From assembly GCA_045658315.1 (NCBI GenBank), contig JAZOUV010000064.1, forward strand, positions 1 through 53,067: DNA of 53,067 nt. Direction: 5' to 3'. The position numbers and the translations under genes are program-made. Positions 28,043 through 46,413 of the stretch are shown piece by piece. The stretch is from Eubacteriales bacterium (GTDB taxonomy: Bacteria; Bacillota; Clostridia; Oscillospirales; CAG-272). Position 1 is the stretch's first letter. Every line of letters starts with the position of its first letter. The notes beneath the pieces were generated by a model. The model did not search any database. It saw only the letters and a list, made by a program, of their open reading frames with translations, and was not told the DNA's origin.

Positions 28043-28079
28043 AAAAGTAGGGGCGGATTCTAATATCCGCCCACTTTTT
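28043..28079. repeat. GTAG REP-like palindrome, likely also a bidirectional terminator
   Basis: AAAA-GTAGGGGCGGAT-tctaat-ATCCGCCC-ACTTTT between convergent genes. Confidence 0.55.
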
Positions 28080-28125: not shown

Positions 28126-29292
28126 TTAACCTAATTTTTGTTTAATCGTCGCAAGTCTTTCGAGGGCATCGTAAAGTGTCTCGTCTTTCTTCGCATAGTG
28201 GAGTCTCACGATATCTCTGACGTCTTCCATAAAGAACGAAGTTCCGGGTACTGCGGCAACGCCTACCTTTGCCGCCATTTCTTCACAGAATTCAACGTCT
28301 GTCTGTCCCTTTTTCATAAACTGACCGATATTCGCCAAAACGAAATACGTTCCCTGCGGGTCAGAATACTCAATACCGAGTCTGTCAAGCCCTTCGGTAA
28401 ATATCTTCTTCATGTGAGCATAATGCTGACCAAATTCGTCATAGTAGCTGTCGGGAAGTTCAAGTCCCACTACTGCCGCTTCCATAAGAGGCGACGGAGC
28501 TCCAACGGTATTAAAGTCGTGGTACTGCTTAATTCTGTCCATAATATGCTGAGGAGCTATAGCATATCCAAGTCTCCAGCCTGTTATCGAATAGGTCTTC
28601 GACAAGCTGCTGCAAGAAATCGTTCTCTCCCACATTCCGGGAAGACTGTTCATATAAGTGTGCTTATGACCCTCGTATACGATATGCTCGTAAACCTCGT
28701 CCATAATAACATAGGTATCGTACTTAATAGCAAGGTCTGCTATCTGCTTGAGTTCAGCCTCTGTAAACACCTTACCGCTGGGGTTTGACGGGTTACAAAT
28801 AAGTATAGCCTTAGCCCCCTGCTTAAATGCATCTTCAAGTACGTTTGCATCATAGTTAAATGCGGGCGGAATAAGGGGTACGAATATAGGCTCACAACCA
28901 ACAAGAAGAGCCTGTGCTCTGTAATTCTCAAAATAAGGTGAGAACATTATAATCTTTTCTCCGGGATTTGTGATGGCAAACAAAGTATCTACCATAGCTT
29001 CCGTTGAACCTATCGTAACAACTACCTCTGTTTCGGGGTCTATCTTCCTGCCCATAAATCTTCCGCACTTTTCAGCCAAAGCACGTCTGAAATTTGGTGC
29101 ACCCATCGTAATAGGATACTGGTGAGGGCCGATTTGGCTAATCTCTTCGAGTCTGTCTGTCAACACCTTGGGCGGATCAAAATCGGGAAATCCCTGTGCT
29201 AAGTTAATCGCGTTATTCGCTATAGCAATTCTGGTCATACGGCGTATGACCGAATCTGTAAAATACTTTGTCTTTCTGCTAAGTTCCTGCAT
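28126..29292 (-). CDS. PLP-dependent aminotransferase class I/II
   Basis: NLAQGFPDF, CNPSNPSGK, DEVYEH and SLSKTYSITGWRLGY. Confidence 0.93.
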   Translation of the reverse strand: MQELSRKTKYFTDSVIRRMTRIAIANNAINLAQGFPDFDPPKVLTDRLEEISQIGPHQYPITMGAPNFRRALAEKCGRFMGRKIDPETEVVVTIGSTEAMVDTLFAITNPGEKIIMFSPYFENYRAQALLVGCEPIFVPLIPPAFNYDANVLEDAFKQGAKAILICNPSNPSGKVFTEAELKQIADLAIKYDTYVIMDEVYEHIVYEGHKHTYMNSLPGMWERTISCSSLSKTYSITGWRLGYAIAPQHIMDRIKQYHDFNTVGAPSPLMEAAVVGLELPDSYYDEFGQHYAHMKKIFTEGLDRLGIEYSDPQGTYFVLANIGQFMKKGQTDVEFCEEMAAKVGVAAVPGTSFFMEDVRDIVRLHYAKKDETLYDALERLATIKQKLG

Positions 29293-29316
29293 ATTATTTA
29301 TACCTCTATATATTTT

Positions 29317-29745
29317 TTAGTTAAGTCCGAGCTTTTCTCCGGGAACGGTTTTTAAACCGTTTGCTTCGAGAACATCAAGGATATTAGCTTCATCAGCCAA
29401 ACGGAACACCATATATGCATCGTCCGTTCCTCTGTCAATAAGAGAATACATATATTCAATGTCTATATGAGCGTCTGCCATTTTTTGCAACACCTCTGCA
29501 AGACCTCCCGGCTTATCGGGAACGGCAACCACGTCAACTTCGTTTACACTTACAATACAGTTTTCTTTTGCCAATGCATTTTTTGCTTTCTCGACATCGC
29601 TTACAAGCATACGCAAGATACCGAAATCTGCGGTGTCTGCAATAGAAAGGGCTCGAATATCAATTCCATTCTCATAAAGAGTTCGTGTAACAGATGCTAT
29701 CTTACCCGATTTATTCTGAATAAAAACAGATAATTGCTTTACCAT
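29317..29745 (-). CDS. Tandem ACT-domain protein (paaK/ior-associated)
   Basis: KQLSVFIQNKSG, IRALSIADTADFGILR, PDKPGGL and IEYMY. Confidence 0.9.
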   Translation of the reverse strand: MVKQLSVFIQNKSGKIASVTRTLYENGIDIRALSIADTADFGILRMLVSDVEKAKNALAKENCIVSVNEVDVVAVPDKPGGLAEVLQKMADAHIDIEYMYSLIDRGTDDAYMVFRLADEANILDVLEANGLKTVPGEKLGLN

Positions 29746-29766
29746 ATCATATACTCCTTTTCTATT

Positions 29767-31074
29767 TTAGTCCAAGAGATTACGCTTGTCAATCACTCTT
29801 ACAGCCTTACCCTCGGAACGTGGGATGGAGTTTGGCTCCATCAACTTAACCCTTGCGTTAATTCCGAGAATAACCTTGATTCCCTCGGCAAGCTCCTTAG
29901 CCTGCTTATCGAGTCCCTTGACTGTATCATGGAAGTTCTCGGGAGAAAGCTCTACGCGTACTTCGATACTGTCAAAATTATTCTCTCTGTCAACAACAAT
30001 CTGGTAGTTTGCCGTATATCCCTTTTCAATAAGAACAGTCTCAATCTGTGAGGGAAATACGTTAACGCCTCTGATAATAAGCATATCATCGGTTCTGCCT
30101 CTCGGCTTGGTCATCTTAACAAGCGTTCTTCCGCAAGAGCATTTTTCTCTTGTAATAACACCGATATCCCTTGTTCTGTATCTGAGTATGGGGAACGCTT
30201 CTTTAGTAATACACGAAAATACAAGCTCTCCCTGTGTTCCCTCCGGAAGCACCTCGCCGGTCTCGGGGTCAATCACCTCAACGATAAAGTGGTCTTCGTT
30301 TATATGCATACCCGTCTGTTCTTCACACTCGAAACCAACGCCGGGACCGATTATTTCGGTCAAGCCGTATATATCAAAAGCCTTGAGTCCGAGCATTTCC
30401 TCTATCTGCTGACGCATCTCATTTGTCCAAGGCTCAGCTCCGAAAATTCCCGCTTTAAGCTTTATGTCATCTTTCGTATATCCCATAGCATAAAGCGTCT
30501 CTGCAATATGCAAAGCGTATGAAGGAGTACAGCAAAGAATCGTTGAACCGAAATCCTTCAAAATCGTTACCTGTCTTTGAGTATTACCGCTTGATACGGG
30601 GATCGCAGTTGCCCCCAGTCTCTTTGCTCCGCCGTCAGCACCGAGTCCGCCCGTAAACAAGCCGTAACCGTATGAAACGTGTACCATATCTTCCTCGGTA
30701 CAGCCTGCCGCCGTAAATGCTCTTGCACAACAGTCAGCCCACAAATCAAGGTCGTTTTGCGTATATCCCACAACTATCTGTTTGCCCGTCGTACCACTCG
30801 ATGCGTGAAGTCTTACGACGTCCTTCATCGGAACCGCAAACATTCCATAGGGGTATGTATCACGCAAATCCTGCTTATAGTTAAACGGGAGCTTGTAAAG
30901 GTCATCTATACTCTTTATATCTTCGGGTACAATCCCTATTTCCTCCATTTTTTTGCGATAATGGGGAACATTTTCGTATACTCTTTTTACAGTGTTTATC
31001 AACCTTTCGCTTTGAATCGCTTTCATTTCTTCACGCGAAGCGGTCTCTATTTCGGGTTGGTAGTATTTCGCCAT
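29767..31074 (-). CDS. paaK: Phenylacetate-CoA ligase family
   Basis: HASSGTTGK, YGYGLFTGG, CTPSYA, FGAEPW, YGLTE, RYRTRD, GRTDDMLIIRGVNVFPSQIE and EGKAVR; SD GGAGA precedes ATG 31074. Confidence 0.93.
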   Translation of the reverse strand: MAKYYQPEIETASREEMKAIQSERLINTVKRVYENVPHYRKKMEEIGIVPEDIKSIDDLYKLPFNYKQDLRDTYPYGMFAVPMKDVVRLHASSGTTGKQIVVGYTQNDLDLWADCCARAFTAAGCTEEDMVHVSYGYGLFTGGLGADGGAKRLGATAIPVSSGNTQRQVTILKDFGSTILCCTPSYALHIAETLYAMGYTKDDIKLKAGIFGAEPWTNEMRQQIEEMLGLKAFDIYGLTEIIGPGVGFECEEQTGMHINEDHFIVEVIDPETGEVLPEGTQGELVFSCITKEAFPILRYRTRDIGVITREKCSCGRTLVKMTKPRGRTDDMLIIRGVNVFPSQIETVLIEKGYTANYQIVVDRENNFDSIEVRVELSPENFHDTVKGLDKQAKELAEGIKVILGINARVKLMEPNSIPRSEGKAVRVIDKRNLLD

Positions 31075-31090
31075 CAAATGACATCTCCTT

Positions 31091-31669
31091 TTACGCATTT
31101 GCACCCAATGCAAATGCCTTTTTATTCATTTCCAAGAATTTTTGAGGAACACTTTCCTCTATAGCCTTCAACCATTCAGCTTCCGAAAAATCAAAATATT
31201 TTGAAAGTCTACCCATAAGCACAAGATTAACAGCCTTTGACGAACCTGCTTTTTCTGCAAGTTCGAGTGCATTTATCGCATCGACGCTAAATCCGTCTGC
31301 CTTCATTTTTTCTGCAAGACCTGCAGGATATTCTGCTGCACCTGTAACAACGGGCATAGGATTTATCTGCTGTGTATTTGTAATTATCTTTCCGTCTTTT
31401 TTCAAAAATTTCGTCCATCTTGCCGCCTCGAGAAGCTCAAAAGAAACAATAAAATCTGCTTCGCCCTCGTCGATAACGGGAGAATACACCTCGTCTCCAA
31501 AACGCACGTAAGTTACGACCGAGCCGCCTCGCTGGCTCATTCCGTGAACCTCGGAAACCTTTACGTCATACCCCTTGGTAAGAAGCAATCTTCCCAAAAG
31601 CTTACTTGCAAGAAGAGAGCCTTGTCCGCCAACGCCGACAATCATTATATTTTTCGTATTGTTATTCAT
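31091..31669 (-). CDS. iorB: Indolepyruvate (arylpyruvate):ferredoxin oxidoreductase beta subunit
   Basis: GVGGQG, SEVHGMSQRGGSV and FELLEAAR. Confidence 0.93.
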   Translation of the reverse strand: MNNNTKNIMIVGVGGQGSLLASKLLGRLLLTKGYDVKVSEVHGMSQRGGSVVTYVRFGDEVYSPVIDEGEADFIVSFELLEAARWTKFLKKDGKIITNTQQINPMPVVTGAAEYPAGLAEKMKADGFSVDAINALELAEKAGSSKAVNLVLMGRLSKYFDFSEAEWLKAIEESVPQKFLEMNKKAFALGANA

Positions 31670-33405
31670 TTTGCTGCCTCCTGCATTGCTCCGAATTTAC
31701 AAAGCTGTGTGCATACTCCGCAACCGGTACATAGGGTTGCGTCTATCACTGCCTTTCCGTCAACCATACTAATTGCGGGACAGCCTATCTTCATACACAT
31801 CTTACAGCTCTTACATTTGTCTGCCGAAACTGTTACGGGAGACTTATGTTTTACGTATTTAAGAAGTGCACAAGGACGTCTCGATATAATAACCGAAGGC
31901 TCTTCTTTTGCCAATTCTTCTTTAATTACAGTTTCACATTCGGCAATGTTATACGGGTCTACAACTCTTACGGAATTTATGCCTATAGCCTTGCACAAAG
32001 CTTCAAGGTCCACCTTTGCCGCAGGGTCTCCCTTTAAATTAAATCCTGTTGTGGGGTTATGCTGGTGTCCCGTCATACCCGTAATAGAGTTATCGAGAAT
32101 AATAACGGTGCTGTTTGAATTGTTATATGAAATATTAACAAGCCCCGTCATACCCGAGTGCATAAACGTCGAATCGCCGATCACAGCAACAGTTTTGCCG
32201 TCGCTCTTGCCGTCATTCGCCTTGTTAAAGCCGTGAGCTCCCGATATAGAAGCCCCCATACAAATAACGCTGTCAACTGCATTAAGTGGAGCAACTGCCC
32301 CCAGTGTGTAACAGCCTATATCTCCGATTACGTTAAGCTTCAATTTTGACAAAACGTAATACAGACCTCTGTGAGGACAGCCTGCACACATAACGGGAGG
32401 ACGGTTGGGGATAACGGCATCTACAGCCTCTCCTGCGGTGTATTCTAACCCAAGTCCCGTTGCAACCTTATTCTGAGACAATTCGTCAATATTAGAAAAC
32501 AAATTTTTTCCCTCAGTCTCAATACCGATTGCATTGCAAAAGCCTTCGATAAATCCGTCAAGCTCTTCTACTACAATTACCTTTTTAACGGAAGAAGCAA
32601 ACTCTTTCATCAGCTTTTCGGAAATAGGCCACACCATACCGAGCTTCAATATGCTGACATCACATCCGCATACTTCCTTTACGTACTGATAACAAGTTCC
32701 TGCTGTAATAATACCTATCTTGTCATCACTACCCTTTTCCCATTTGTTAAGCGTGGAGGTTTCGGCATATTCAGCTAATTTAGCCATTCTCTCCTCAACA
32801 ATTGGGTGTCTCTTCTTTGCAAAACCGGGCATCATTATGTATTTTGAAGGATTCTTAACGTATTCAACTTGCTCTTTTTCAACACGGTCAGACGTTTCAA
32901 CAATGCTCTGCGAATGAGCAACACGGGTACACATCTTCAAAAGCACCGGCGTGTCAAATTTTTCAGAAATCTCATAAGCCGCCTTTGCGAACTCAAGCGA
33001 CTCCTTTGAGTTTGAAGGCTCCAGCATAGGCAGCTTCGCCGCCCTTGCGTAATGTCTTGAATCCTGCTCGTTTTGTGAACTGTGCATACCGGGGTCATCG
33101 GCAACACCGATAACCATACCTGCATTAATACCTGTATATGATATTGTAAACAGAGGGTCAGCCGCAACGTTAAGACCGACGTGCTTCATACCGCAAAAGC
33201 TTCGTTTTCCTGCCAAAGCCGCACCAAACGCAGCCTCCATAGCAACCTTTTCATTCGGTGCCCATTCTGCATAAATCTCAGCATATTTCGCCGCACATTC
33301 GGTTATTTCCGTACTGGGAGTGCCGGGATAACTTGAAACAAAAGAACATCCGGCCTCAAACAAACCTCTCGCAACAGCCTCATTACCTAACATTAGCTGT
33401 TTCAT
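31666..33405 (-). CDS. iorA: Indolepyruvate (arylpyruvate):ferredoxin oxidoreductase alpha subunit
   Basis: YPGTPSTEI, MKHVGLNVAAD, SSQNEQD, RPPVMCAGCPHR, DIGCYTLG, GDSTF (TPP motif) and C-terminal 2x4Fe-4S. Confidence 0.95.
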   Translation of the reverse strand: MKQLMLGNEAVARGLFEAGCSFVSSYPGTPSTEITECAAKYAEIYAEWAPNEKVAMEAAFGAALAGKRSFCGMKHVGLNVAADPLFTISYTGINAGMVIGVADDPGMHSSQNEQDSRHYARAAKLPMLEPSNSKESLEFAKAAYEISEKFDTPVLLKMCTRVAHSQSIVETSDRVEKEQVEYVKNPSKYIMMPGFAKKRHPIVEERMAKLAEYAETSTLNKWEKGSDDKIGIITAGTCYQYVKEVCGCDVSILKLGMVWPISEKLMKEFASSVKKVIVVEELDGFIEGFCNAIGIETEGKNLFSNIDELSQNKVATGLGLEYTAGEAVDAVIPNRPPVMCAGCPHRGLYYVLSKLKLNVIGDIGCYTLGAVAPLNAVDSVICMGASISGAHGFNKANDGKSDGKTVAVIGDSTFMHSGMTGLVNISYNNSNSTVIILDNSITGMTGHQHNPTTGFNLKGDPAAKVDLEALCKAIGINSVRVVDPYNIAECETVIKEELAKEEPSVIISRRPCALLKYVKHKSPVTVSADKCKSCKMCMKIGCPAISMVDGKAVIDATLCTGCGVCTQLCKFGAMQEAAK

Positions 33406-33470
33406 CTATCTTTTCCTCACTTTCTTTCCGCTAAAACACGGAGGAATTCTATCAAAAAAATAATATAGTT

Positions 33471-33499
33471 ATTATACCACAAATATAAAACATATTCAA
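33471..33499 (-). promoter_or_regulatory. Internal sigma-A promoter upstream of iorA
   Basis: TTGAAT-N17-TATAAT with TG extension on the minus strand. Confidence 0.6.
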
Positions 33500-33536
33500 T
33501 AATATATTACAGTTCTTTTTTACTTTTTTCTGTTTT

Positions 33537-35075
33537 TTATCCCATATGTTCTTTTACGGATACTGTAACACTTTGTGAATAGCAAGAAAACACTTTTTCT
33601 ACCGTTTCTTTATCAGGTTTCTTAGTAAAAGCACTTACTACGGGTACTATTATCAGTCCCGCCAGCATACAAAACGCACCTGCATTTATGGGAGACTGCA
33701 AGACAATGGGGAATGAACTTCTTATTAATATATTTGCTATCATCACAACCGTTGAGAATATTATGTTTACCCAAACGGCAGCCTTGGTTACGCCCTTCCA
33801 ATATAAACCGTACAGAAAAGGTGCAAGAAAAGCTCCCGCCAATGCTCCCCAGGATACACCCATAAGCTGAGCTATAAAAGAAATACTTCCTCTATGCTGA
33901 ATTATCGCAATTACTGCTGATATCGCAATAAACAGAACTATCAGAACACGCATAACCGATAACTGCTTCTTCTCGGTCATATTCCTTGCAATTTTTCCCT
34001 TTATAAAATCAAGAGTCAACGTAGAGCTTGACGTCAAAACAAGAGATGAAAGGGTTGACATTGATGCCGAAAGAACAAGCACTATAACTATTCCAATTAA
34101 AACATCGGACAGCCCTTTGAGCATATTCGGAACTATCGAATCGAAAATAACAGCTCCCTCCGCCGTCGTATCGGGTGTAAATAATCTGCCGAAGCCGCCG
34201 AGGAAATAGCAACCGCCTGCAACTATCAGTGCAAACACCGTGGAAATAATAGTTCCCTTTGTAATCGCCTTTTCATTTTTGATTGCATAAAACTTCTGCA
34301 CCATCTGCGGAAGACCCCAAGTTCCAAGCGAAGTAAGAAGTACTACGCCGAGCAGATTTATCGGGTCGGGACCGAAAAATGAGGTCAGTCCCCCTTGCTT
34401 TATCCCCTCAGCTTCGCTTGATATCATATTTAAGCTGTCCATAGCCGCAGTAAGTCCGCCCTGCGTATTAAGGACTGCTGTTATAACCGCTATTATACCC
34501 ACTATCATAATGATTCCCTGTATAAAATCATTAATCGCAGTAGCCATATACCCACCCGCAATAACGTATATTGCGGTCAATACCGACATTACTATTACGC
34601 AATATTCATACGGAATATCAAACGCCATACCGAAAAGACGGCTGAGTCCGTTGTAAAGCGATGCCGTGTACGGAATCAAAAATATAAATATTACCGCAGA
34701 TGACAGCAGTTTTAAGCCTTGACTGCTGTAACGGTTGCAAAAAAACTGCGGCATCGTAGCACTGTCTAAATGCTGAGTCATAATACGGGTACGTCTGCCT
34801 AATATAATCCAAGCAAGCAAAGAACCGAGTATTGCATTACCAATACCTGCCCATGTCGCCGCAATACCGTATTTCCAACCAAACTGCCCCGCATATCCTA
34901 CGAATACAACAGCCGAAAAATACGATGTGCCGTAAGCAAATGCCGTCAGCCAAGGACCTACGCTTCGTCCGCCCAACACAAAACCGTTTACGTCTGTTGA
35001 GTGCTTGCGGCAATATAAACCGATACCTATCATTGTACCGAAAAATATTACCAGCATTGCCACCTTAATAAACAT
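33537..35075 (-). CDS. Sodium:solute symporter (SSS) family protein
   Basis: About 13 TM segments; GFVLGGRSVGPW, SYFSAVVFVGYAG, GGYMATAINDFIQG and SASMSTLSS. Confidence 0.92.
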   Translation of the reverse strand: MFIKVAMLVIFFGTMIGIGLYCRKHSTDVNGFVLGGRSVGPWLTAFAYGTSYFSAVVFVGYAGQFGWKYGIAATWAGIGNAILGSLLAWIILGRRTRIMTQHLDSATMPQFFCNRYSSQGLKLLSSAVIFIFLIPYTASLYNGLSRLFGMAFDIPYEYCVIVMSVLTAIYVIAGGYMATAINDFIQGIIMIVGIIAVITAVLNTQGGLTAAMDSLNMISSEAEGIKQGGLTSFFGPDPINLLGVVLLTSLGTWGLPQMVQKFYAIKNEKAITKGTIISTVFALIVAGGCYFLGGFGRLFTPDTTAEGAVIFDSIVPNMLKGLSDVLIGIVIVLVLSASMSTLSSLVLTSSSTLTLDFIKGKIARNMTEKKQLSVMRVLIVLFIAISAVIAIIQHRGSISFIAQLMGVSWGALAGAFLAPFLYGLYWKGVTKAAVWVNIIFSTVVMIANILIRSSFPIVLQSPINAGAFCMLAGLIIVPVVSAFTKKPDKETVEKVFSCYSQSVTVSVKEHMG

Positions 35076-35109
35076 ATTATATCACCTTAATTTTTCTGTT
35101 TTTCAATTT

Positions 35110-36747
35110 TTATTTTGTTGTCTGTGCCTCTACAAGTCTTCCGGCACCGTACATCTGACGCAATACCGGCTTTTCAATCTTACCTGTAGGATTACGGGGA
35201 ACCTTTGCAAATATAAGCTTCTTCGGACGCTTATATCTCGGCAATGCGTGGCAGAAATCGTTTATTTCTTCTTCTGTTGCCGTCATTCCCTCTTTAAATT
35301 CAATAACTGCCGCCGCAATTTCACCAAGCCTTTCATCGGGAAGACCGATGACCGCAACGTCCTTTATCTTTGTATTTGTATTCAAGAAGTCCTCAATTTC
35401 AACGGGATATAGGTTTTCACCGCCCGAAATGATAACGTCTTTCTTTCGGTCAACAAGATAGATAAAGCCCTCTTCGTCCATTCTTGCAACGTCTCCGGTA
35501 AATAGCCAACCGTCCTTCAAGACTTCATTCGTCGCCTTCTCGTTCTTGTAGTAACAAAGCATTACTCCGTCGCCCTTAACCGCAAGCTCTCCCACGTCGC
35601 CCTGCTCTACTTTCTTACCGTTTTCGTCAACAATCTTCGCTTCCCAGTTATATCCCGGCTTACCTATTGCACCAACCTTATGAATGTTCTCGACACCGAG
35701 ATGAACACAGCCGGGACCAATCGATTCCGACAAACCGTAGTTCGTATCATACTCGTGATTTGGGAATTGCTTTTTCCATCTGTTGATAAGACTCGGCGGT
35801 ACAGGCTGTGCACCAATATGCATAAGTCTCCATTGGTCGAGCATATAGTCATCAAGCTGTATTTTACCCGCTTCAACTGCGTTAAGCAAATCCTGTGCCC
35901 ACGGCACAAGCAGCCACACAATAGTGCATTTTTCTTCGGTTACGGCACGTAAGATCCACTCCGGCTTTACACCTCTGAGAAGAACCGCACGGCTGCCCGA
36001 AAGTAAGCTTCCGAACCAGTGCATCTTAGCTCCCGTATGATAAAGGGGCGGAATACAAAGAAACACATCGTCTCTTGTTTGTCCGTGATGATTTTGCTCT
36101 GTTTTGCATGAGCTTACCAACGCCTTGTGATTATGTAAAATAGCCTTAGGTCTGCCCGTTGTCCCCGACGAGAAATATATTGCCGCGAAGTCTGTTTCTT
36201 CAACCATAACGGGCGGAGCCTTCGTTGAAGTATAAGTTACAAGCTCAAGATAGCTTTCTGCAAAAACAGGAATATCTCTTCCTACAAAAAATTTAAATTT
36301 GAGCCTTTCAAGGGCATTCGGCACAGTTTCAAGACGCTCTGTAAACTCAGGACCAAACACCAAAACGTCTACGTCTGCTAAATCAAGACAGTATTCAATT
36401 TCATCGCCCGAATATCTGAAGTTCATCGGAACCGCCAATGCACCCGATTTCAATATACCAAAATATATCGGCAGCCACTCGAGGCAGTTCATAAGAAGGA
36501 TAGCAACCTTCTGCCCCTTCTTTATACCTCTGCTAAGCAAAAGGTTCGCAAATCTGTTCGCCTTTTCATCAAACTGTCTCCAGTTTATCTCTCTTCTGTA
36601 AGGAAGGTCGGGGCTTGTATTTTCTATAAGACTAAAATCTCTCCACGTTACAGCATTATCTCTCTCTTCGGAAGGATTTATTTCAACCAATGCCGTTTCA
36701 TCTCCGTAAAGACGTGCATTTCTTTCCAAAAAATCCGCTATTACCAT
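35110..36747 (-). CDS. Class I adenylate-forming acyl/aryl-CoA ligase
   Basis: YFSSGTTGRPK, PPLYH, YGLSE, GWLFTGD, DRKKDVIISGGENLYP and PRNPTGKI. Confidence 0.92.
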   Translation of the reverse strand: MVIADFLERNARLYGDETALVEINPSEERDNAVTWRDFSLIENTSPDLPYRREINWRQFDEKANRFANLLLSRGIKKGQKVAILLMNCLEWLPIYFGILKSGALAVPMNFRYSGDEIEYCLDLADVDVLVFGPEFTERLETVPNALERLKFKFFVGRDIPVFAESYLELVTYTSTKAPPVMVEETDFAAIYFSSGTTGRPKAILHNHKALVSSCKTEQNHHGQTRDDVFLCIPPLYHTGAKMHWFGSLLSGSRAVLLRGVKPEWILRAVTEEKCTIVWLLVPWAQDLLNAVEAGKIQLDDYMLDQWRLMHIGAQPVPPSLINRWKKQFPNHEYDTNYGLSESIGPGCVHLGVENIHKVGAIGKPGYNWEAKIVDENGKKVEQGDVGELAVKGDGVMLCYYKNEKATNEVLKDGWLFTGDVARMDEEGFIYLVDRKKDVIISGGENLYPVEIEDFLNTNTKIKDVAVIGLPDERLGEIAAAVIEFKEGMTATEEEINDFCHALPRYKRPKKLIFAKVPRNPTGKIEKPVLRQMYGAGRLVEAQTTK

Positions 36748-36794
36748 TTTATTCTCCTTCTATGTTAAATCTTAATATTTTTTATACCAGCAAA

Positions 36795-37058
36795 ATAAAA
36801 AGTCCTCTGCGAGTAATTTTCGCAGAGGACGACTGTTAATCGTGGTACCACCTCAATTGGTTCTCATTAAGTCCGGGACAGTAGTTATCCTTAGACTCTT
36901 ACGCAGTAACGGGCGTCCCCGTCTTGTCTTACTCTGTATTTCGGACAAGCCGCTCGGAAATGTATTCAATAATATCTTCGTCTTTGTCTCGCACCAACCG
37001 ACAATTCTCTGTAAGAGTCTCGACATTATCTACTTGTTTTCGTCAACGCATTTAAATT
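36795..37058 (-). ncRNA. T-box riboswitch, Tyr (UAC) specifier
   Basis: Minus strand: AGUA...AGAGA...GGUGCGAG...GAA-UAC-A (specifier at 36962-36964), CCGUUA, T-box AAUUGAGGUGGUACCACG (36841-36858), terminator GUCCUCUGCG...CGCAGAGGAC-UUUU. Confidence 0.92.
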
Positions 37059-37066
37059 ATGTCAGC

Positions 37067-37095
37067 ATTTTACCACTTTCCTGTGCTAAAGTCAA
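37067..37095 (-). promoter_or_regulatory. Sigma-A promoter of the T-box leader
   Basis: TTGACT-N17-TAAAAT with TG extension immediately upstream of the T-box. Confidence 0.75.
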
Positions 37096-46338: not shown

Positions 46339-46413
46339 GCCGATGTAGCACAGTGGTAGTGCAGCTGATTCGTAATCAGCAGGTCGTGGGTTCAATCCCC
46401 ACCATCGGCTCCA
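46339..46413 (+). tRNA. tRNA-Thr (anticodon CGT)
   Basis: Acceptor GCCGATG/CATCGGC, D-arm, anticodon arm GCTGA-TTCGTAA-TCAGC, T-arm GTGGG-TTCAATC-CCCAC, encoded CCA. Confidence 0.96.

What the first reader, a model, noticed from the sequence alone, without database searches (positions are those of the whole stretch)
28126..37095. Tyr T-box heads an aryl-acid uptake, activation, reductive carboxylation and transamination cluster
Seen: a complete T-box with UAC specifier and UGGU antiterminator bulge (matches the A discriminator of tRNA-Tyr). It precedes acyl-CoA ligase - SSS symporter - iorA - iorB - paaK - ACT - aminotransferase, all on one strand. Established: T-boxes switch on under starvation for the cognate amino acid; IOR interconverts arylpyruvate and arylacetyl-CoA + CO2; rumen anaerobes and methanococci can build aromatic amino acids from aryl-acetates. 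Inference: the cluster runs anabolically, scavenging 4-hydroxyphenylacetate/phenylacetate to make Tyr/Phe. That would make the generic ligase a candidate 4-hydroxyphenylacetate-CoA ligase and the SSS protein its transporter, although such genes are usually annotated as catabolic.
Basis: partly seen in the sequence, partly recalled or inferred. Interest (0 to 1): 0.75.

Follow-up and report, generated by a model that had tools for sequence, protein, structure and literature searches.

The report
Tyrosine switch on aryl-acid salvage operon
A tyrosine-type T-box RNA switch sits in front of seven genes (two CoA ligases, a symporter, indolepyruvate:ferredoxin oxidoreductase, an ACT protein and an aminotransferase) that likely rebuild tyrosine and phenylalanine from aromatic fermentation acids, although such genes are usually labelled as breakdown genes.

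Summary
Observation confirmed. There is a full T-box (Rfam 127 bits) with a UAC specifier, UGGU bulge and terminator, followed by ligase-SSS-iorA-iorB-paaK-ACT-aminotransferase. Of 59 T-boxes heading the same ligase unit in relatives, 54 read Tyr and 5 Phe; the 4 heading paaK alone read Phe.

Anabolic salvage is likely (~0.75). Both ligases are AMP-forming, and no ATP-yielding catabolic partner was found. The genome has parallel Ile/Val/Leu T-box modules for branched-chain acids, with no ilvD found. In T-box-less relatives a TrpR/HisR-type palindrome marks both this ligase and the de novo aro operon.

Two corrections: the genome keeps a complete aro/pheA/tyrA route, so salvage is supplementary. 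A conserved internal promoter precedes iorA, so here the T-box may tightly gate only ligase+SSS. Substrates are untested.

The pathway is known (methanococci, rumen bacteria; proposed for Bacteroides in 2026). New here are the regulatory evidence and the candidate ligase and transporter. Two key T-box surveys could not be read. The scan noted this operon before on other genomes (15 distinct notes listed).

The parts
37067..37095 (-). sigma-A-type promoter (TTGACT-17-TAAAAT, extended -10 TG) for the leader
   Evidence: 10/12 match; same position in close relatives; function inferred
37069..37090 (.). partly degenerate palindrome of TrpR/HisR (YerC) operator type overlapping the promoter
   Evidence: score 15.8, rank 7 in the genome with a matrix trained without close relatives; consensus from PMC9413887; weak in this genome, strong in relatives
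36822..37055 (-). class I transcriptional T-box leader
   Evidence: Rfam RF00230 127.4 bits, full length
36962..36964 (-). specifier UAC (Tyr)
   Evidence: register calibrated on 9 other T-boxes of the genome
36847..36850 (-). antiterminator bulge UGGU
   Evidence: pairs with A-discriminator tRNAs including both tRNA-Tyr
36802..36830 (-). intrinsic terminator overlapping the antiterminator
   Evidence: 11 pairs, U-tract; -20.7 vs -7.0 kcal/mol
35110..36747 (-). AMP-forming acyl-CoA ligase of an unnamed conserved family ('lig1'); candidate 4-hydroxyphenylacetate-CoA ligase
   Evidence: PF00501+PF13193; no NCBIfam cut-off reached; substrate inferred
33537..35075 (-). sodium:solute symporter (SSF); candidate aryl-acetate importer
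   Evidence: PF00474; below all named NCBIfam cut-offs
33471..33499 (-). internal promoter-like site (TTGAAT-17-TATAAT, extended -10) before iorA; no terminator in the gap
   Evidence: conserved in L018-L021 and L029
31666..33405 (-). iorA, indolepyruvate:ferredoxin oxidoreductase alpha subunit (only copy in the genome)
   Evidence: TIGR03336 722.8 > 650.9
31091..31669 (-). iorB, beta subunit
   Evidence: NF005325 277.3 > 230
29767..31074 (-). PaaK-like arylacetate-CoA ligase
   Evidence: TIGR02155 566.7, below cut-off 646.3; best PDB hits are phenylacetate-CoA ligases 2y27, 2y4o, 4r1l
29317..29745 (-). ACT-domain-pair protein; possible amino-acid-sensing regulator
   Evidence: PF19571; PDB 2f06 relative; role inferred
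28126..29292 (-). class I/II PLP aminotransferase
   Evidence: PF00155; no named NCBIfam cut-off reached
28051..28072 (.). bidirectional terminator-like hairpin closing the cluster

Best explanation
A Tyr-specifier T-box heads a seven-gene cluster that likely salvages aryl-acetic acids into aromatic amino acids. Steps: (1) Uncharged tRNA-Tyr would pair with UAC and UGGU and allow read-through. The structure is shown; the response follows from established T-box biology. (2) The SSS protein would import 4-hydroxyphenylacetate (inferred). (3) Lig1 would activate it, and the PaaK-like ligase phenylacetate and probably indoleacetate, spending ATP to AMP+PPi (AMP-binding family shown; substrates inferred). 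(4) IorAB would add CO2 with reduced ferredoxin to give arylpyruvates (enzyme family shown; direction inferred). (5) The aminotransferase would give Tyr, Phe or Trp (inferred). In this lineage the ligase+SSS pair is the Tyr-gated module, while iorAB-paaK-ACT-aminotransferase probably also have a basal promoter. The route supplements an intact shikimate pathway, saving carbon and energy.
For: Specifier: UAC in the register that gives the expected amino acid for 9 of 9 other T-boxes of this genome that head a synthetase or biosynthetic gene. It is the only Tyr T-box among the 12 found. Relatives: 54 UAC and 5 UUC among 59 T-boxes heading the lig1 unit, none non-aromatic; 4 of 4 T-boxes directly before paaK-ACT read UUC. 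Lig1 is linked to iorA in 86 of 158 loci, and 38 of 41 lig1-bearing phylum genomes have iorA versus 160 of 259 others (kin not independent). Three different aminotransferase families fill the last slot, and one of them lies directly before pheA in 8 other genomes. Catabolic partners were not found in this 97%-complete genome: no butyrate-kinase-type kinase over cut-off, no ADP-forming ligase, no HGD-D. PMC13285125 ties catabolic IORs to kinase/phosphotransacylase or ADP-forming ligases and argues that AMP-forming partners imply biosynthesis. Internal parallel: Ile (AUC) and Val (GUA) T-boxes head MbcS-like ligases, ilvE and vorB in a genome where ilvD was not found. Second regulatory system: a TrpR/HisR-type palindrome on lig1 promoters also sits (score >=20) at the head of the pheA-aroB-aroC operon in 11 of 26 genomes, against a maximum of 13.4 in 195 control regions.
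Against: No biochemical, expression or labelling data. The de novo pathway is complete, so salvage is not required. The internal promoter weakens the link between the T-box and iorAB here. Only 57 of 147 informative loci have a T-box. In a phylum-wide sample lig1 is near iorA in only 7 of 40 loci and under a T-box in 4 of 40, with mixed neighbours. B. thetaiotaomicron IOR has been linked to Phe-to-phenylacetate conversion, and PaaK can itself make HPA-CoA (PMC13285125). A PaaI-like thioesterase lies just upstream in 9 loci.
Confidence: 0.75

Rival explanations
1. The T-box module (lig1+SSS) supplies tyrosine by another route. The SSS would import Tyr or another precursor, and lig1 would act on a different acid (for example a C3 hydroxyphenyl acid), while iorAB-paaK handle arylacetates on their own promoter.
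For: Lig1's nearest solved relatives are FadD13, FadD5, feruloyl-CoA synthetase and 4-coumarate:CoA ligase, not PaaK. PaaK already activates HPA. There is an internal promoter. Lig1 often stands alone outside the family. Tyr T-boxes are known on tyrosine transporters of other families (PMC2494555).
Against: Lig1 co-occurs with iorA at genome level (38 of 41) and is tightly coupled to it, with no room for a promoter, in 36 of 77 loci. A C3 acid would need an HGD-D dehydratase, which was not found here.
Confidence: 0.15
2. The cluster is mainly catabolic or bidirectional. IorAB would oxidise arylpyruvates to arylacetyl-CoA as an electron source or overflow, and the T-box is an incidental add-on.
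For: IOR is catabolic in Pyrococcus and C. difficile and linked to phenylacetate formation in B. thetaiotaomicron (PMC13285125). A thioesterase neighbour is present in some loci. iorAB has its own promoter here.
Against: A T-box switches on when the amino acid is scarce, the wrong logic for degrading it. The specifier is aromatic in 63 of 63 relevant leaders. The ligases are AMP-forming, and no kinase or ADP-forming exit was found. The operator is shared with the aro operon in relatives.
Confidence: 0.07

Closest known systems
Class I transcriptional T-box leaders with a Tyr specifier (Rfam RF00230; B. subtilis tyrS type)
   Same: Full Stem I, II, IIA/B, III, antiterminator and terminator; UAC is the usual Tyr specifier (0.99 in TBDB, PMC7778990).
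   Different: The cargo is a CoA ligase, an SSS symporter and iorAB-paaK. In the Wels 2008 survey, Tyr T-boxes head tyrS, NhaC/NSS transporters and B. cereus-group biosynthesis genes, and the text has no hits for phenylacet, indolepyruvate, ferredoxin or CoA ligase.
Aryl-acid pathway of Methanococcus maripaludis (IorA2B2; Porat et al. 2004) and phenylacetate-to-Phe synthesis in rumen anaerobes (Allison 1965)
   Same: Arylacetate -> CoA ester -> IOR carboxylation -> transamination, alongside a de novo route (seen only as passages in PMC4162585, and PMC7356843).
   Different: Bacterial genes in one cluster with a second, non-PaaK ligase, a transporter and tRNA-sensing control; the originals were not held.
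Bacteroides thetaiotaomicron IOR + AMP-forming arylacetate-CoA ligase cluster (PaaK, PDB 4r1l)
   Same: iorAB beside a PaaK-type ligase; the ligase was assayed with IA, PA and HPA and a biosynthetic role was proposed (PMC13285125 passages and Fig. S11 legend).
   Different: That paper's passages mention no T-box, lig1 or SSS; it infers direction from enzyme type, while here regulation points the same way.
Oxidative Stickland branch HpdDEFG-HpdJ-HpdK (C. scatologenes) and C. difficile IOR-kinase clusters
   Same: Same metabolites (HPP, HPA-CoA, HPA).
   Different: They use phosphotransacylase + kinase or an ADP-forming ligase to gain ATP; these partners were not found here.
HisR (YerC, TrpR family) operators of Firmicutes
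   Same: Consensus cacTTTAnnnnnnTAAAgtg (PMC9413887) fits the palindrome on lig1 promoters.
   Different: Published HisR regulons hold his genes and His transporters (no ior, paaK or ligase terms in the supplements). In relatives the box marks lig1, the aro operon and a separate YerC paralogue.

Membership tests
T-box leader (RF00230), transcriptional class I | Covariance-model score above gathering, full length | tested here: met
   127.4 vs 93 bits, positions 1-219
T-box leader (RF00230), transcriptional class I | Antiterminator with UGGN bulge overlapping an intrinsic terminator | tested here: met
Tyr-specific T-box | UAC at positions 2-4 from the 3' end of the specifier loop; bulge N pairs with the tRNA-Tyr discriminator | tested here: met
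   rule from PMC7778990
Tyr-specific T-box | Read-through induced by uncharged tRNA-Tyr | not testable with these tools
   needs in vitro transcription or a reporter
Indolepyruvate:ferredoxin oxidoreductase IorAB | TIGR03336 and PRK06853 cut-offs | tested here: met
   722.8>650.9; 277.3>230 (TIGR03334 196 < 205.8)
Phenylacetate-CoA ligase PaaK (TIGR02155 equivalog) | Curated cut-off 646.3 | tested here: not met
   566.7 bits; best PDB hits are PaaK enzymes, so 'PaaK-like'
Named aryl- or acyl-CoA ligase families (for lig1) | Any NCBIfam equivalog cut-off or close solved relative | tested here: not met
   best 416 < 476 among the 25 families shown; Foldseek hits at most 28% identical
Aryl-acid salvage pathway (M. 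maripaludis type) | Label from arylacetate or CO2 reaches aromatic amino acids and depends on IOR | not testable with these tools
   experiment needed
Oxidative Stickland aryl branch (HpdJK / ADP-forming ligase) | Acyl kinase of butyrate-kinase type or ADP-forming ligase with the oxidoreductase | tested here: not met
   TIGR02707 71.7 < 289.1; PF13607 none; genome 97% complete
HisR/TrpR-family regulon | 20-bp palindrome over the promoter plus a cognate regulator in the genome | tested here: inconclusive
   Window site degenerate (15.8, rank 7); only one TrpR-family gene here, heading the his operon; strong in relatives

The most novel reading that the evidence does not exclude
Gut and rumen Clostridia run a family of regulated 'waste-acid-to-amino-acid' salvage modules. 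Lig1 is a new dedicated 4-hydroxyphenylacetate-CoA ligase family with its own SSS importer. It is switched either by a Tyr T-box or, in other lineages, by an undescribed aromatic-amino-acid repressor (a YerC/TrpR paralogue that also controls the aro operon). These bacteria would then fix CO2 into tyrosine and act as a sink for the precursor of p-cresol.
Probability: 0.35. Interest if true: 0.72.

Novelty: new variant of a known kind. Interest (0 to 1): 0.52.

Why it matters
IorAB and PaaK are routinely annotated as degradative, and their direction in gut anaerobes is an open question: a 2026 paper raises it for Bacteroides from enzyme type alone. A starvation-induced Tyr switch, plus a second regulatory system shared with the aro operon, gives independent genomic evidence for the biosynthetic direction. 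It also supplies named candidates (lig1, SSS) for genes behind the arylacetate-to-amino-acid conversion seen in rumen bacteria since the 1960s. If true, metabolic models of many Clostridia need the reaction reversed, and these organisms would consume 4-hydroxyphenylacetate, the p-cresol precursor. The chemistry and the riboswitch are each known kinds.

Tried and rejected
Auxotrophy as the driver: rejected for this genome (aroC, aroA, tyrA x2, pheA, aroB, aroQ, DAHP synthase x2) and for the family (aroC in 195 of 200). Four of the 5 aroC-less genomes carry lig1. G044 (95% complete) lacks aroC, aroB and tyrA hits, but one missing contig could explain that.

Alternative specifier frames (AUA Ile, ACA Thr): rejected, because the flanking bases vary in relatives while UAC is constant. 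A regex tally of specifiers miscalled L081, L087, L095 and L097; the alignment was used instead.

Substrate of lig1 from structure: the AlphaFold model has low confidence at the pocket loops (237-240, 343-346), and Foldseek gives only generic adenylate-forming enzymes. The ESM Atlas look-up with a homologue gave only generic names. Pocket-region residues are invariant in 40 homologues and identical under Tyr and Phe T-boxes, so they do not discriminate.

PaaK-ACT complex prediction: no verdict. RNA runs: none was listed.

Papers not held: Gutierrez-Preciado 2009, Vitreschak 2008, Porat 2004, Sauer 1975. The two T-box surveys or the TBDB/RegPrecise tables may already list T-boxes on ior or vor operons. 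Paper searches combining T-box with indolepyruvate, phenylacetate, ferredoxin oxidoreductase or acyl-CoA synthetase terms found nothing relevant. A search of the scan's earlier notes for a TrpR/YerC aromatic regulon found none.
Full report
OBSERVATION. The leader is a full-length T-box (RF00230, 127.4 bits, 37055-36822, minus strand). The specifier loop is GAA-UAC-A, closed by UUUC/GAAA pairing. The antiterminator bulge is UGGU and overlaps an 11-bp terminator (-20.7 vs -7.0 kcal/mol). A sigma-A-type promoter lies at 37095-37067. The seven genes follow as described: an AMP-binding ligase of no named family (lig1), an SSF symporter, iorA and iorB above their NCBIfam cut-offs, a PaaK-like ligase just below its cut-off but nearest to solved phenylacetate-CoA ligases, an ACT-pair protein and a class I/II aminotransferase. 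Gaps are 34, 131, -4, 16, 21 and 24 nt. A hairpin at 28051-28072 closes the unit.

SPECIFIER. The genome (1.82 Mb, 97% complete) has 12 T-box matches. Read in the same register, 9 of 9 that head a synthetase or biosynthetic gene give the expected amino acid: valS GUC, thrS ACC, pheS UUC, serS UCC, aspS-gatCAB AAC, cysE-cysS UGC, asd ACC, trpB UGG and a leuA-like gene CUC. Gene names were read by eye from the translations, except trpB and leuA-like. This leader is the only Tyr one. TBDB gives the same register rule and UAC as 99% of Tyr specifiers (PMC7778990, passages). UGGU fits both tRNA-Tyr genes but also many other A73 tRNAs.

RELATIVES. Lig1 is present at E<=1e-100 in 91 of 200 family genomes. 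I examined 160 loci: 80 of the 420 found, and 80 of the 91 family genomes; 2 were duplicates. Of 59 T-boxes heading the lig1 unit (53 lig1-first, 6 SSS-first), 54 read UAC and 5 UUC. The 4 T-boxes placed directly before paaK-ACT, in closely related genomes, all read UUC. Left out of this count: the duplicates, two split halves, two Leu leaders heading another ligase upstream, one UAC leader downstream of lig1, and five unrelated leaders. A T-box was found in 57 of 147 loci with enough upstream DNA. iorA lies nearby in 86 of 158 loci, paaK in 65 and the SSS in 58. The last slot holds three different aminotransferase families, one of which sits directly before pheA in 8 other genomes. Across the phylum, 41 of 300 genomes have lig1; 38 of these have iorA, against 160 of the other 259 (my cross-count; kin are not independent). 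Against the reading: in 40 of those 41 loci, iorA was within 6 kb in only 7 and a T-box was present in 4 (3 UAC, 1 UUC), with varied neighbours.

GENOME CONTEXT. The de novo route is intact: CM/pheA, aroB, aroC, aroE/K, aroQ, aroA, tyrA and a DAHP synthase on C3, plus a second tyrA and DAHP synthase on C80. aroC occurs in 195 of 200 family genomes. Salvage is therefore supplementary, as the second pathway is in M. maripaludis (passage in PMC4162585). Not found in this genome: HGD-D, a butyrate-kinase-type kinase over cut-off and an ADP-forming ligase. The last two are the ATP-yielding partners that PMC13285125 associates with catabolic IOR/VOR clusters. That paper also states that the Bacteroides IOR lies beside an AMP-forming arylacetate-CoA ligase and may be biosynthetic, notes an earlier report linking the same IOR to Phe-to-phenylacetate conversion, and used a PaaK to make HPA-CoA (first part of the text, passages and supplement legend read). 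The genome shows the same design for other amino acids. Ile (AUC) and Val (GUA) T-boxes head MbcS-like ligases followed by ilvE and vorB, and a Leu T-box heads a leuA-like gene and a ligase, while ilvD was not found. A Trp T-box heads a lone trpB, with trpC not found. Carboxylation of branched-chain acids and phenylacetate in rumen bacteria is cited in PMC7356843 (passages).

TWO REFINEMENTS. First, the 131-nt gap before iorA holds TTGAAT-17-TATAAT with an extended -10 and no terminator. It is conserved in five close relatives. In this lineage the T-box therefore likely gates lig1+SSS tightly and iorAB-paaK-ACT-aminotransferase only in part. That fits a Tyr-specific front module and a general arylacetate module also needed for Phe and Trp. 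In 36 of 77 loci the gap is 40 nt or less, so there iorAB depends on the upstream promoter. Second, many T-box-less lig1 promoters carry a palindrome (45 of 160 loci at up to 3 mismatches, including T-box-bearing ones) that fits the HisR/TrpR-family consensus (PMC9413887, passages). A matrix trained only on lig1 promoters scores >=20 at the head of the pheA-aroB-aroC operon in 11 of 26 genomes with pheA. The 30 genomes searched were chosen mostly for having the box, and 195 control upstream regions scored at most 13.4. It also scores 17-27.5 in front of one YerC clade that lies away from the his operon. Lig1 thus appears co-regulated with de novo aromatic synthesis by a second mechanism. In this window the box is degenerate (15.8, rank 7) and overlaps promoter elements, and the only TrpR-family gene heads the his operon, so I do not claim it works here.

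MECHANISM AND LIMITS. Most likely route: Tyr shortage -> read-through -> import of 4-hydroxyphenylacetate -> CoA activation -> reductive carboxylation by IorAB -> transamination to Tyr, with PaaK serving Phe and Trp. Shown: structure of the switch, gene families, conservation of the aromatic specifier, and catabolic partners not found in this genome. Inferred: direction, substrates, and the role of ACT. Lig1's substrate could not be read from structure or names. I put anabolic aryl-acid salvage at 0.75, and lig1 as a dedicated HPA ligase at roughly 0.5-0.6.

NOVELTY. The riboswitch, the enzymes and the pathway are each known. A T-box on this cargo did not turn up in five text searches or in the main text of Wels 2008. 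The two main T-box surveys and database tables were out of reach, so prior listing is not excluded. The scan's own earlier agents reported the same operon on other genomes (one note is marked 'part of it fell', without detail); these are not independent evidence. Verdict: new variant of a known kind, interest 0.52.

Noticed in passing
L363:5004-15498 (G000 C45) and L364:11697-15909 (G000 C9): Ile (AUC) and Val (GUA) T-boxes head two HTH/cupin-fused MbcS-like acyl-CoA ligases followed by a nitrilase-family gene, ilvE and vor genes. A Leu (CUC) T-box heads a leuA-like gene and a TIM-barrel-fused ligase. ilvD was not found in the genome. This looks like the gene set for building branched-chain amino acids from branched-chain fatty acids.
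   Followed up: partly
L180, L181, L182, L274, L279, L287 (YerC paralogue); L214-L218, L221, L240, L241, L249, L250, L257 (aro operon heads): A YerC/TrpR-family paralogue separate from HisR has a palindrome in its own promoter that also marks lig1 and the pheA-aroB-aroC operon: a candidate undescribed aromatic-amino-acid repressor regulon.
   Followed up: partly
L024-L027, L058-L060, ~100 nt upstream of lig1: The T-box seems to have been deleted, leaving only the terminator hairpin (and in L058/L060 part of the antiterminator) behind a promoter with a near-perfect palindrome; how the genes are read through is unexplained.
   Followed up: no
L010 (G000 C51:777-2408): A Trp T-box heads a lone trpB, and trpC was not found in the genome, suggesting indole salvage to tryptophan.
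   Followed up: partly
window 29764-29792 (-): An 11/12 promoter-like site at the end of paaK could drive ACT-aminotransferase separately; conservation not checked.
   Followed up: no
L103 (G044), L123 (G199): Genomes with a Tyr T-box on lig1 in which aroC was not found (G044 also no aroB or tyrA hit): possible obligate salvagers, or missing contigs.
   Followed up: partly
L359:603-3333: A Phe (UUC) T-box heads an ABC transporter (PF04392) followed by lig1, an alternative importer in the same slot; MFS transporters fill it in L038, L040, L045, L047-L049 and L054.
   Followed up: no
L147, L154, L158 (and opposite strand in L118, L120, L143, L156): An amidohydrolase_2 gene often lies next to lig1; it might release aryl acids from conjugates.
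   Followed up: no
window 46339-46410 (+): tRNA-Thr(CGU) gene.
   Followed up: no
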